Source of the DNA: an uncultured delta proteobacterium | GTDB taxonomy: Bacteria; Desulfobacterota; Binatia; Binatales; Binataceae | NCBI GenBank assembly: GCA_963814715.1 | Contig: CAWFDW010000001.1 | Span: 910,184 to 974,183 of the forward strand | Length of the DNA: 64,000 bases | Direction of reading: 5' to 3' | Part shown: positions 63,305 to 64,000 of the stretch, in pieces | Position numbering within the stretch: the first letter of the stretch is position 1 | Layout of the letters: each line of letters opens with the position of its first letter | Notes under the pieces: generated by a model | The model's input: the letters and a program-made list of their open reading frames with translations, nothing else | Told to the model about the DNA's origin: nothing | Databases searched by the model: none | Position numbers and translations under genes: made by a program

Positions 63305-64000
63305 TCAAAGACCTAATCGCTTCCTTATGCGCTCGGCGATCGACTGTATCGTTTCTTGAAACATCGGGCGCTGCATCATCATGCTTTCGATATGTCGAAT
63401 GGCGTGCAGGACTGTTGAGTGGTCGCGATCGAAAACATCGCCGATTCGCGCGAACGATGAATTCGTAATCAATCGGCAGAGATATATCGCGCTCATACGC
63501 CCTAAAGCGATTCGTGCAATGCGGCTCTTGCTGAAGATCTTCGCGGGCGTTAGTCGGAACTGGTCGCAAACCTCTTGAACGATGATCAAACTTGCAGCGT
63601 CGAGCGGCCTCTTCTCGGCGCCGGCCGGCAGGGAGTCAGCTTCTGACGCTGCGGAGACAGTCCGCGCTGATTGCATTTTAGTTCCAACAGGCAACTCGAA
63701 CTCAAACATGGCGCCGCGATCGGGGTTCTGGAACGCCAAGATTCTGCCGCGGTGGTTTTCGATGATCGAACGGACGGCGGGGAGACCCAACCCCATTCCA
63801 CTCGCTTTGGTCGCAGCGAAAGACTCGAACCGGCGCGGCGCGGTCTTCGGATCGATGCCCGTGCCGGAATCCCACACCGACACACGTACCCAGTCGGTTT
63901 TAACCTGAGCCGCGATTAAAGATACCTCGCGAGGTGCTTCACCCTCGCAGACTGATTCGAACGCGTTGAAGACAAGGATCAAGATGGCCCCTGTGAGTTG
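63305..64000 (-). CDS. histidine kinase (5' part outside window) with HATPase_c fused to a C-terminal DnaA domain-IV (Bac_DnaA_C) HTH
   Basis: The frame is open to the window edge (QLTGAILILVFNAFES is the N-box). VWDSGTGID...GMGLGLPAVRSII is the HATPase part. The C-terminus IFSKSRIARIALGRMSAIYLCRLITNSSFARIGDVFDRDHSTVLHAIRHIE is colinear with E. coli DnaA [52 protein letters not shown]. Confidence 0.8.
   Translation of the reverse strand, partial: QLTGAILILVFNAFESVCEGEAPREVSLIAAQVKTDWVRVSVWDSGTGIDPKTAPRRFESFAATKASGMGLGLPAVRSIIENHRGRILAFQNPDRGAMFEFELPVGTKMQSARTVSAASEADSLPAGAEKRPLDAASLIIVQEVCDQFRLTPAKIFSKSRIARIALGRMSAIYLCRLITNSSFARIGDVFDRDHSTVLHAIRHIESMMMQRPMFQETIQSIAERIRKRLGL

What the first reader, a model, noticed from the sequence alone, without database searches (positions are those of the whole stretch)
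63305..64000. Histidine-kinase ATPase domain fused directly to a DnaA domain-IV DNA-binding domain
One uninterrupted frame, open to the window edge, contains the HATPase_c N, G1 and G2 boxes. A linker of about 25 aa follows, then about 95 aa that align residue by residue with the DnaA-box-binding domain IV of E. coli DnaA, including the signature RDHTTVLHA (here RDHSTVLHA). A sensor kinase carrying its own DnaA-type HTH would bypass a response regulator, or could compete at DnaA boxes. I do not know this architecture as a characterised family.
Basis: partly seen in the sequence, partly recalled or inferred. Interest (0 to 1): 0.65.

Follow-up and report, generated by a model that had tools for sequence, protein, structure and literature searches.

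The report
Histidine kinase fused to DnaA DNA-binding domain
The window ends inside a real, conserved but uncharacterised soil-bacterial gene in which a soluble GAF sensor histidine kinase carries the DNA-binding domain of the replication initiator DnaA instead of signalling through a response regulator, and several relatives have lost their kinase chemistry while keeping the DNA-binding end.

Summary
On the minus strand, 63305-64000 holds the last 231 codons of one open frame. Pfam finds HATPase_c (E 2.5e-15), then a ~30-aa linker, then Bac_DnaA_C (E 2.1e-20). A model of the C-terminal domain superposes on DnaA domain IV bound to a DnaA box at about 1 A rmsd.

Orthologues give the full protein: about 562 aa, soluble, with the order GAF, HisKA, HATPase_c, linker, DnaA domain IV. 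About 50 sequences are known, in three clades, from soil metagenomes and one 'delta proteobacterium' MAG. All that carry a name are annotated only as 'histidine kinase'. Every domain is under purifying selection (dN/dS 0.15-0.5).

No response regulator is adjacent in 7 of 8 distinct contexts. A 53-aa excisionase-type HTH_17 gene is linked in all three clades, but none was found in the window. The phospho-acceptor His was lost in two lineages. One copy has the ATPase domain deleted in frame. The window's own copy has 10 private changes in the ATPase domain and none in the DnaA domain (p = 6e-4).

My best reading is a kinase-derived, one-polypeptide signal-to-DNA regulator. No DnaA-box target was found, so competition at oriC remains speculation. 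It is a new variant of known kinds.

The parts
63305..64000 (-). 3' part (231 codons plus TGA stop) of a gene for a GAF-HisKA-HATPase_c-DnaA-domain-IV protein. The frame is open at the window edge, and about 331 codons (N-terminal stretch, GAF, DHp) lie beyond 64000.
   Evidence: Searches give the translation. One search shows 89% identity, without gaps, to residues 332-562 of the 562-aa orthologue L004:8696-10381. One search gives the full architecture of the orthologues.
63686..64000 (-). Catalytic ATP-binding (CA, HATPase_c) domain, aa 1-105 of the fragment. Motifs: N box 63953-63976, G1 63851-63871, altered F box FESFAATK 63806-63829, G2 63782-63799.
   Evidence: Pfam HATPase_c E 2.5e-15. 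There are 13 private substitutions in this domain, 10 of them at sites invariant in 13 other clade A sequences. The terminal-branch dN/dS is about 2.4.
63596..63685 (-). Linker of about 30 aa between the kinase and the DNA-binding domain.
   Evidence: It has no Pfam hit. It varies in length and sequence between clades, with dN/dS up to about 1.2-1.5 between clades. Its pLDDT is below 50 in the model of P0002.
63308..63595 (-). DnaA domain IV-type helix-turn-helix domain, aa 136-231. The Pfam core is 63389-63583, the basic loop SKSRIARIALGRM is 63494-63532, and the signature RDHSTVLHA is 63401-63427.
   Evidence: Pfam Bac_DnaA_C E 2.1e-20. The family profile hits M. tuberculosis DnaA DBD 3PVP at E 2.8e-17. 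The residue-by-residue alignment to E. coli 1J1V is. The AlphaFold2 model has pLDDT 96.7 and superposes on 3PVP and 1J1V at TM 0.82-0.91 and rmsd 0.9-1.1 A.
63179..63304 (-). 3' flank of 126 nt that is still homologous to the clade A orthologous loci. Homology stops at 63179, and the excisionase-like HTH_17 partner gene that follows in those loci is missing here.
   Evidence: blastn of the window against L002-L005, L021 and L023. tblastn with the HTH_17 protein finds nothing in the window.

Best explanation
The window ends inside a gene for a soluble, cytoplasmic protein of about 562 aa. Its domain order is a GAF sensor domain, a DHp (HisKA) dimerisation helix pair, a CA (HATPase_c) ATP-binding domain, a flexible linker of about 30 aa, and a DnaA domain IV helix-turn-helix. 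It arose when a small stand-alone DnaA_C-type gene was joined to the 3' end of a FixL/NtrB-like GAF kinase. I think it works as a one-polypeptide signal-to-DNA device. The DHp bundle makes a dimer that presents two DnaA-type HTH domains. These bind a pair of (still unknown) DnaA-box-like sites. The GAF/kinase core sets whether they can bind. Phosphotransfer to a response regulator is not the essential output. At least in the window's clade and in clade C the kinase chemistry is being lost, while the sensor, the dimerisation module and the HTH are kept. Shown here: the architecture, its conservation and selection, the fold and the retained DNA-contact residues, the lack of transmembrane segments, and the repeated loss of kinase features. 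Inferred: dimerisation (a general property of HisKA kinases), DNA binding, and gating by GAF. Unknown: the ligand, the target sites and the regulated genes.
For: Architecture and reality. Pfam finds GAF, HisKA, HATPase_c and Bac_DnaA_C in the full-length orthologues, and the window fragment aligns to them without gaps. About 50 sequences in five 90%-identity clusters share the architecture. In a library of 1.84 billion representative proteins, the only two representatives found with both parts belong to this family.

Selection. dN/dS is 0.15-0.5 for GAF, DHp, CA and DnaA_C between and within clades, while the linker reaches about 1.2-1.5.

DNA-binding competence. The model of the window's own domain superposes on the DNA-bound DnaA domains 3PVP and 1J1V at about 1 A rmsd, and all 12 matches with E <= 0.01 are DnaA. 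The equivalents of E. coli R399, R407, D433, H434, T436 and H439 are kept, and T435 is Ser here.

Cytoplasmic location. The highest 19-residue hydropathy is 1.33, so no membrane helix is predicted.

Kinase dispensability. The H-box His is Arg in three clade A sequences (L002/P0001, P0249/L023, P0257) and Asn in both clade C sequences, and all three of these whose full length is seen (P0249, P0076, P0224) are intact ORFs of 561-562 aa. The two His-less clade A genes differ from each other with dN/dS 0.33. P0075/L021 has a clean in-frame deletion of 128 codons that removes the whole CA domain and keeps GAF-HisKA-DnaA_C. The window copy has 10 private changes at otherwise invariant CA sites against 0 in DnaA_C (Fisher p = 6e-4).

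No cognate regulator. No receiver domain is in the protein, and no response-regulator gene is adjacent in L004/5, L007, L008, L011, L019, L020/22 or L021.

Origin of the C-terminal domain. The nearest relatives of the domain are stand-alone proteins of 100-170 aa. P0010 is one of them (102 aa, 67% identical), and it is a genuine separate gene with no kinase remnant upstream. The nearest unfused kinases, P0003 and P0005, end exactly where the linker begins.
Against: Nothing here shows DNA binding, and no candidate operator was found. DnaA boxes, strict or relaxed, are at chance level in the window and absent next to the family genes. The linker is long, unconserved and predicted to be disordered, which makes allosteric control of the HTH by the kinase core hard to picture. 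Clade B keeps every catalytic motif, and CA stays under purifying selection even in the His-less copies, so ATP binding or kinase activity probably still matters in much of the family. The loss events could instead be early steps of gene decay. They are seen in few sequences, and the His-to-Arg copies may not be monophyletic. One locus (L023) does have a receiver-domain protein right after the gene.
Confidence: 0.5

Rival explanations
1. It is a working histidine kinase that is tethered to DNA. The DnaA-type HTH only parks the kinase at particular chromosomal sites, and the output is still phosphotransfer to an unlinked (orphan) response regulator, possibly one bound nearby.
For: All sampled clade B sequences whose kinase core is seen, and most clade A sequences, keep the H, N, G1, F and G2 boxes. 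The CA domain has dN/dS of about 0.3 across the family. The kinase core resembles FixL-type kinases: 36% identity to the YF1/FixL core 4GCZ and an NCBIfam FixL hit at E 1.8e-19. In L023 a 205-aa HTH_17 plus receiver protein is encoded directly downstream. A flexible linker fits a tether better than an allosteric switch.
Against: No response regulator is adjacent in 7 of 8 distinct contexts. The one locus that has an adjacent receiver protein (L023) is one in which the kinase has Arg in place of the phospho-acceptor His. His was lost in two lineages and CA was deleted once, yet the ORFs are maintained.
Confidence: 0.25
2. The protein binds genuine DnaA boxes at oriC or in DnaA-regulated promoters and competes with DnaA, coupling a GAF-sensed signal to replication initiation.
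For: The fold and most base-contacting residues of DnaA domain IV are retained. Regulators of two-component type that act at origins are known from general knowledge of CtrA, Spo0A and MtrA. I did not test this here.
Against: Several residues equivalent to E. coli DnaA positions differ: P423 is Ala, Q408 is Met and T435 is Ser. Specificity may therefore have shifted. The domain groups with small stand-alone DnaA_C proteins rather than with chromosomal DnaA. There is no DnaA-box cluster in the window or in any family locus, whereas real dnaA loci (L013-L015) show 5-12. The gene travels with an excisionase-like gene in variable contexts, not with replication genes.
Confidence: 0.1
3. The copy in this window is a decaying gene. 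It is a member of a functional family, but it is on its way to becoming a pseudogene.
For: It has 13 private substitutions in CA, against 0-5 in 13 other clade A sequences, including R43W, L57R, P60S, T63A and T98M. The terminal-branch dN/dS in CA is about 2.4. The HTH_17 partner gene that follows the gene in the other clade A loci is missing, and homology breaks 126 nt after the stop. Other family copies show a frameshift (L001) or a deletion (L021).
Against: The 231 visible codons hold no stop or frameshift. The DnaA_C part of the same copy has dN/dS of about 0.28 and no change at invariant sites. That pattern fits domain-specific relaxation, not whole-gene decay.
Confidence: 0.15
4. The fusion is an artefact, produced by a missed stop codon, a frameshift or a chimeric assembly that joined two neighbouring genes.
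For: None found.
Against: The same continuous frame appears in more than 20 independent contigs from JGI, ENA, Logan and NCBI assemblies, at 58-94% identity, with synonymous changes spread throughout.
Confidence: 0.01

Closest known systems
Soluble GAF/PAS class I sensor histidine kinases of the FixL/NtrB-like HisKA type. Examples are the unfused relatives P0003 and P0005, and the FixL-derived YF1 structure 4GCZ.
   Same: They share the GAF, coiled coil, HisKA (H box HELxQPL) and HATPase_c core. Identity over the CA domain to P0003/P0005 is about 60%. Identity to 4GCZ in the fold search is 36%.
   Different: Those kinases end right after the CA domain and signal through a response regulator. 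This family adds a linker plus a DnaA-type HTH, has no adjacent regulator, and has lost His or CA in some members.
DnaA domain IV, the DnaA-box-binding domain of the replication initiator (E. coli 1J1V, M. tuberculosis 3PVP).
   Same: The fold matches at TM 0.82-0.91 and rmsd about 1 A. The signature RDH(S/T)TV(L/M)(H/Y)A is present, and the basic-loop Arg and most DNA-contact residues are kept.
   Different: There is no DnaA domain I and no AAA+ domain III, so the protein is not an initiator. It has P423A, Q408M and T435S equivalents. No DnaA boxes lie nearby.
Stand-alone Bac_DnaA_C proteins, called 'helix-turn-helix domain-containing protein' in NCBI annotation. Examples are P0010, P0011, phrog_16091, and phage or plasmid copies.
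   Same: They are the closest sequence relatives of the C-terminal domain, at 61-67% identity for P0010 and P0011.
   Different: They are single-domain proteins of 100-170 aa with no known function, and they have no sensor or kinase part.
Bacteroides hybrid two-component systems (HTCS), which combine a kinase, a receiver and an AraC-type HTH in one chain (PMC11253607).
   Same: A histidine kinase and a DNA-binding output sit in a single polypeptide.
   Different: HTCS are membrane proteins and keep a receiver domain between the kinase and the HTH. Here there is no receiver domain, the protein is soluble, and the HTH is of the DnaA type.
Pseudo-histidine kinases such as Caulobacter DivL (PMC4211667; 4Q20 is among the fold hits).
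   Same: An HK scaffold is kept and reused without the phospho-acceptor His.
   Different: DivL has Tyr in place of His and acts by protein-protein contacts. Here the loss is patchy within the family, and the scaffold carries a DNA-binding domain.
Y1 (HUH) TnpA_REP-like transposases with a C-terminal Bac_DnaA_C-like region (bioRxiv 10.1101/279083). P0187 is an example.
   Same: They are another case in which the DnaA-type HTH has been recruited as a C-terminal DNA-binding module outside DnaA.
   Different: The N-terminal partner is unrelated (a transposase), and there is no signalling domain.

Membership tests
Class I sensor histidine kinase (HisKA + HATPase_c) | HATPase_c (CA) domain above the Pfam gathering score, with N, G1 and G2 boxes | tested here: met
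   The domain scores 57.3 bits against a cut-off of 26.4. The boxes are LVFNAFES, DSGTGID and GMGLGL.
Class I sensor histidine kinase (HisKA + HATPase_c) | Conserved F box / ATP lid | tested here: inconclusive
   The window has FESFAATK where all relatives have FEPF(F/V)TTK or FDPFVTTK. It has 10 private changes at invariant CA sites. Whether ATP binding survives cannot be decided from sequence.
Class I sensor histidine kinase (HisKA + HATPase_c) | DHp domain with a phospho-acceptor His in the H box | tested here: inconclusive
   In the window this part lies beyond position 64000. In the orthologues His is present in clade B and in most of clade A. It is Arg in L002, P0249/L023 and P0257, and Asn in P0076 and P0224.
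Class I sensor histidine kinase (HisKA + HATPase_c) | Cognate response regulator (typical feature; usually encoded next to the kinase) | tested here: not met
   None is adjacent in the window, where the nearest receiver domains are about 30 kb away. None is adjacent in L004/5, L007, L008, L011, L019, L020/22 or L021. Only L023 has an HTH_17 plus receiver gene downstream.
DnaA replication initiator | AAA+ ATPase domain III (Pfam Bac_DnaA) and N-terminal domain I | tested here: not met
   There is no Bac_DnaA hit in the fragment or in the full-length orthologues. The NCBIfam DnaA equivalog scores 71.7 bits against a cut-off of 343.9, and only its positions 350-437 are matched.
DnaA domain IV / Bac_DnaA_C domain | Profile match above the curated threshold | tested here: met
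   PF08299 scores 73 bits against a cut-off of 31.5, E 2.1e-20. The PDB profile search gives 3PVP at E 2.8e-17.
DnaA domain IV / Bac_DnaA_C domain | Fold of DnaA domain IV | tested here: met
   The AlphaFold2 model of window aa 131-231 has pLDDT 96.7. Foldseek gives 3PVP at TM 0.86/0.91 and rmsd 1.1 A, and 1J1V at TM 0.82/0.88 and rmsd 0.9 A. All 12 matches with E <= 0.01 are DnaA.
DnaA domain IV / Bac_DnaA_C domain | DNA-contact residues (E. coli R399, P423, D433, H434, T435, H439) | tested here: met
   The alignment to 1J1V shows R399, D433, H434 and H439 kept, T435 replaced by Ser, and P423 replaced by Ala. R407 is also kept and Q408 is Met. The residue roles are taken from established knowledge of the 1J1V complex.
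DnaA domain IV / Bac_DnaA_C domain | Binding to the 9-bp DnaA box | not testable with these tools
   Only negative context is available. TTWTNCACA occurs once in the window against 1.8 expected, and never next to a family gene.
Hybrid two-component system (kinase + receiver + HTH in one chain) | Receiver (Response_reg) domain between the kinase and the DNA-binding domain | tested here: not met
   There is no Response_reg hit in the fragment or in the 561-562-aa orthologues.
One-component regulators (sensor domain + DNA-binding domain in one soluble chain) | Sensor and HTH in one cytoplasmic polypeptide | tested here: met
   The orthologues have GAF and Bac_DnaA_C in one chain and no predicted membrane helix. 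The window's N-terminal part cannot be seen.
One-component regulators (sensor domain + DNA-binding domain in one soluble chain) | No phosphotransfer domains | tested here: not met
   A HisKA plus HATPase_c core lies between the sensor and the HTH.

The most novel reading that the evidence does not exclude
This family may be a two-component kinase caught while turning into a one-component regulator. The GAF-gated kinase dimer would directly control a DnaA-type HTH, and phosphotransfer would be in the course of being abandoned, with loss of His or CA seen independently in several lineages. In the boldest version the HTH still reads DnaA boxes. The protein would then couple an environmental or metabolic signal straight to replication initiation or to the DnaA regulon, without any response regulator.
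Probability: 0.12. Interest if true: 0.85.

Novelty: new variant of a known kind. Interest (0 to 1): 0.57.

Why it matters
Two-component signalling is defined by phosphotransfer from a kinase to a receiver domain. A kinase wired directly to a DNA-binding domain with no receiver is an exception to that rule.

Here the exception is a conserved, selected family, not a single odd sequence. Its members sample several stages: an intact kinase, a His-less kinase, a copy without the ATPase domain, and a copy with an eroding ATP lid. That gives a natural series for asking how a kinase scaffold is converted into a ligand-gated transcription factor.

The family also shows the DnaA box-binding domain serving as a portable output module. 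The function of the many small stand-alone DnaA_C proteins in metagenomes, phages and plasmids is unknown, so this use is relevant to them.

If the domain still recognises DnaA boxes, the protein would be a direct signal-controlled competitor of the replication initiator.

Tried and rejected
1. Extending the window. An exact-protein look-up of the neighbouring GH25 gene found nothing. Neither the genome nor the metagenome scans returned the source contig. The upstream 331 codons are therefore known only from orthologues.

2. DnaA boxes. The strict pattern TTWTNCACA and the relaxed pattern TTNNCCACA are both at chance level in the window. Neither occurs consistently near family genes. True dnaA loci served as a positive control.

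3. A conserved operator upstream. About 130 nt before the start codon are conserved between clades A and B, but I could not single out a convincing repeated site.

4. A REP-like palindrome whose arms read TTCGCCACA (7 of 9 positions of a DnaA box). It lies on both sides of the module in L004. It also occurs elsewhere, is absent from clades B and C, and the match is within chance. I rejected it as evidence.

5. A mobile element. The 2.7-kb block of HTH_17 gene plus kinase gene sits in different flanks at 99.7-99.9% identity, and its partner gene is excisionase-like. However, no integrase or transposase was recognised among the annotated neighbours, no tRNA gene lies at a boundary of the block, and there are no Rfam hits or flanking repeats specific to it. 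Mobility is left open.

6. Promoter, terminator and repeat scans of 62500-64000 found nothing above chance.

7. A Foldseek search with the whole P0002 model returned only kinase cores in the top 50. The domain had to be modelled alone.

8. Plasmid and phage collections hold no close relative of the domain. Hits are at most 43% identical and are mostly DnaA itself.

9. Four literature searches for this architecture found nothing.

10. InterPro domain-architecture tables could not be queried with these tools.
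Full report
WHAT IS IN THE WINDOW

The feature lies on the minus strand. Reading from 64000 down to 63308 gives 231 sense codons, followed by a TGA stop at 63305-63307. The frame is open at the window edge.

Pfam finds two domains above their curated thresholds. HATPase_c covers aa 5-105 (57 bits, E 2.5e-15). Bac_DnaA_C covers aa 140-204 (73 bits, E 2.1e-20).

NCBIfam gives the same picture. The first half matches the C-terminal end of FixL-, ZraS- and AtoS-type kinase models. The second half matches only positions 350-437 of the 437-position DnaA model. 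All of these hits are far below the equivalog cut-offs.

The only corrections are the strand and a linker of about 30 aa rather than 25.

THE FUSION IS REAL AND BELONGS TO A SMALL FAMILY

A word-indexed search of 5.8 billion proteins found two fused relatives, P0001 (86% identical) and P0002 (65%). A metagenome scan with the C-terminal part gave ten more family loci plus three genuine dnaA loci.

The second scan of 185,579 species-representative genomes found a single genome. It is a MAG labelled 'uncultured delta proteobacterium MFD09286.bin.2.99', and the gene sits on a 1.97-Mb contig (L019).

Full-length genes encode 559-567 aa. Pfam orders the domains as GAF, HisKA, HATPase_c, Bac_DnaA_C. 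The window fragment aligns without a gap to residues 332-562 of the 562-aa protein of L004, at 89% identity.

An exhaustive HMMER pass over 1.84 billion cluster representatives used window aa 40-231 as query. Among the 150 best hits it returned only two representatives that carry both parts. These are P0075 (clade A) and P0076 (a third clade, C, 58% identical). Both belong to this family.

The 90%-identity clusters that hold these proteins contain about 50 sequences from JGI, ENA, Logan and NCBI assemblies. Where a source names them, the name is 'signal transduction histidine kinase', 'two-component sensor histidine kinase' or 'hypothetical protein'. I found no paper on the architecture.

The protein has no hydrophobic segment that could span a membrane, so it is cytoplasmic.

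WHERE THE TWO HALVES COME FROM

The nearest unfused kinases, P0003 and P0005, have GAF, HisKA and HATPase_c. They are about 60% identical over the CA domain and stop exactly where the linker starts. The predicted kinase core resembles FixL-type structures, with 36% identity to YF1 (4GCZ).

The nearest relatives of the C-terminal domain are not chromosomal DnaA proteins. They are stand-alone proteins of 100-170 aa that consist of this domain alone. One of them, P0010 (102 aa, 67% identical), is a genuine separate gene with no kinase remnant upstream.

Similar small proteins occur in phages (phrog_16091; a Bradyrhizobium phage; a Pelagibacter phage) and on a plasmid. None has a known function.

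The same domain is also found as 2-4 tandem copies and behind Y1 transposases (bioRxiv 10.1101/279083). It is therefore a portable DNA-binding module.

IS THE DnaA-TYPE DOMAIN LIKELY TO BIND DNA?

An AlphaFold2 model of window aa 131-231 has mean pLDDT 96.7. It superposes on the DNA-bound DnaA domains of M. tuberculosis (3PVP: TM 0.86/0.91, rmsd 1.1 A) and E. coli (1J1V: rmsd 0.9 A). All twelve matches with E <= 0.01 are DnaA.

In the HMMER alignment to 1J1V, the equivalents of R399, R407, D433, H434, T436 and H439 are kept. T435 is Ser in clade A and Thr in clades B and C. P423 is Ala and Q408 is Met. The roles of these residues come from established knowledge of the 1J1V complex.

The domain is under purifying selection, with dN/dS of 0.18-0.54 in pairwise comparisons. 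DNA binding is therefore likely. The specificity is not known.

TARGET SITES

I could not find any target site. The pattern TTWTNCACA occurs once in 64 kb, against 1.8 expected, and not near the gene. No family locus has a box next to the gene. The three real dnaA loci fetched by the same scan have 5-12 boxes. A relaxed pattern is also at chance level.

GENOMIC CONTEXT

The gene is a lone transcription unit in varying surroundings. Three contigs share a 2,665-bp block at 99.7-99.9% identity. The block holds about 960 nt of upstream sequence plus the gene, and the flanks differ between the contigs.

The one constant neighbour is a 53-aa gene of the excisionase/HTH_17 type (Pfam E 2.3e-12; phrog_66). 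In clades B and C it lies roughly 150-500 nt upstream. In clade A it lies about 330-460 nt downstream.

In one clade A locus (L023) the first 46 residues of that protein are joined to a receiver domain, giving a 205-aa HTH_17-receiver protein. No other locus has a response regulator next to the gene.

In the window, homology to the clade A loci stops 126 nt after the stop codon, at 63179. No HTH_17 gene was found anywhere in the 64 kb. The next gene is a GH25 lysozyme-like protein on the same strand.

No tRNA gene lies at a boundary of the block, and there are no Rfam hits. No integrase was recognised among the annotated neighbours. The excisionase-like partner and the shifting context hint at a mobile or recombination-prone module, but that is not shown.

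THE KINASE CHEMISTRY IS BEING LOST IN PARTS OF THE FAMILY

This is the most informative result.

Clade B keeps the H box (LEHELRQPL) and the N, G1, F and G2 boxes in all sampled sequences whose kinase core is seen.

In clade A the phospho-acceptor His is Arg in three sequences from different samples: L002/P0001, P0249/L023 and P0257. In both clade C sequences it is Asn. The three of these seen at full length (P0249, P0076, P0224) are intact ORFs of 561-562 aa.

The two His-less clade A genes for which I have DNA differ from each other with dN/dS 0.33 overall, 0.32 in CA and 0.21 in DnaA_C. This is consistent with continued selection after the loss.

P0075/L021 has a clean in-frame deletion of 128 codons that removes the whole CA domain and leaves GAF-HisKA-DnaA_C. 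L001 has a frameshift between GAF and HisKA.

The window's own copy carries 13 private substitutions in the 92 comparable CA codons, against 0-5 in 13 other clade A sequences. Ten of them fall at sites invariant in all the others: R43W, L57R, P60S, V62A, T63A, V71L, I75A, S90F, T98M and I105V. Seven of these lie in the G1-to-G2 stretch or just after G2. None of the private changes at invariant sites falls in DnaA_C (Fisher p = 6e-4).

A three-taxon branch estimate gives dN/dS of about 2.4 for CA and about 0.28 for DnaA_C on the window's terminal branch. The counts are small.

INTERPRETATION

The family is a soluble GAF kinase that acquired a DnaA-type HTH as a C-terminal output.

Three things are conserved in every variant: the sensor, the dimerisation helices and the HTH. 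The catalytic His, the CA domain and the ATP lid are repeatedly expendable. I therefore think the essential activity is DNA binding by a kinase-scaffold dimer under control of the sensor. In function that makes it a one-component regulator built on a two-component chassis.

The main rival is a working kinase tethered to DNA that signals to an unlinked regulator. It fits clade B well and cannot be excluded. Both could be true in different clades.

It has no positive support.

For this particular window there is an additional possibility. The copy may be decaying as a whole. The domain-specific pattern of change argues for loss of kinase function only.

NOVELTY AND SCORE

Both domains are textbook. 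Precedents exist for kinases joined to DNA-binding domains through a receiver (Bacteroides HTCS, PMC11253607) and for pseudo-kinases (DivL, PMC4211667).

The direct join of a kinase to a DnaA domain IV, conserved over three clades, is not described in anything I could search. I rate it a new variant of known kinds.

It is interesting to specialists in bacterial signalling, mainly because of the natural series of kinase-loss variants. The rating is limited by the small, uncultured host range and by the absence of any identified target.

Noticed in passing
L023:12145-12762 (clade A locus, directly downstream of the His-less kinase-DnaA_C gene): This is a 205-aa protein with an N-terminal excisionase-type HTH_17 domain and a C-terminal receiver domain. 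Its first 46 residues are the same as the 53-aa HTH_17 protein linked to the family gene in all other loci. Homology to L004 stops exactly at residue 46. HTH_17 plus receiver is itself an unusual response-regulator architecture.
   Followed up: partly
L004:10841-10999, L019:4280-4438, L007:4005-4163, L011:5082-5240, L020:375-515, L021:4090-4248: A 53-aa excisionase/HTH_17 gene (MTLEELVEYARISKRTIYRLL...) is linked to the kinase-DnaA_C gene in all three clades. It lies upstream in clades B and C and downstream in clade A. It was not found in the window.
   Followed up: partly
window 48906-48968; L004 6739, 7015, 8057-8107, 11737-11783; L005, three copies: This is a REP-like palindrome of about 50 nt: TGTGTGGCGAATTGCTGATT, a loop, then AATCAGCAATTCGCCACACA. 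It is scattered in intergenic DNA of the clade A organisms. Its arms contain TTCGCCACA, which matches 7 of 9 positions of a DnaA box, but that is within chance.
   Followed up: partly
window 46548-46604; L019 3901-4004; L004 3692-3785; L023 17260-17386: A second short dispersed repeat of about 60-95 nt is shared between the window and loci of clades A and B. This suggests that the organisms are related.
   Followed up: no
P0078, P0086, P0099, P0111, P0187 (library proteins): Some proteins consist of 2-4 tandem Bac_DnaA_C domains. One 1680-aa protein has an IS200-like Y1 transposase domain followed by several DnaA_C repeats.
   Followed up: no
L006/L007/L008 (L007:3705-6369): A 2,665-bp block (HTH_17 gene, spacer and kinase-DnaA_C gene) is 99.7-99.9% identical in three contigs from different samples. 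The flanks differ on the right in all three. On the left, L007 and L008 differ, while L006 simply begins at the block edge. This looks like a multi-copy or mobile segment, but no recombinase was seen.
   Followed up: partly
window 26005-27025 and L021:739-1760: These segments are 86% identical at the nucleotide level. In L021 the gene lies about 700 nt upstream of the kinase-DnaA_C gene, while in the window it is 36 kb away. The lineage is the same but the gene order differs.
   Followed up: no
window 60968-62743 (-): This is a GH25 lysozyme domain (aa 4-168) followed by about 420 aa with no Pfam hit. A 560-nt non-coding gap separates it from the kinase-DnaA_C stop codon.
   Followed up: no
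window 56716-58737 (+) and 58734-60926 (+): Two overlapping large ORFs of 673 and 730 aa sit here. Their function is not obvious from reading the sequence, and I did not search them.
   Followed up: no
window 2247-4310 (-), 6980-8437, 11170-12570, 31797-33005, 34177-36180: The region is dense in regulators. It holds an AAA_16 plus Trans_reg_C protein, two ordinary HisKA/HATPase_c kinases, a receiver-type sigma-54 activator and a GAF-PAS sigma-54 activator. This is a regulator-rich genome in which kinase paralogues are plentiful.
   Followed up: no
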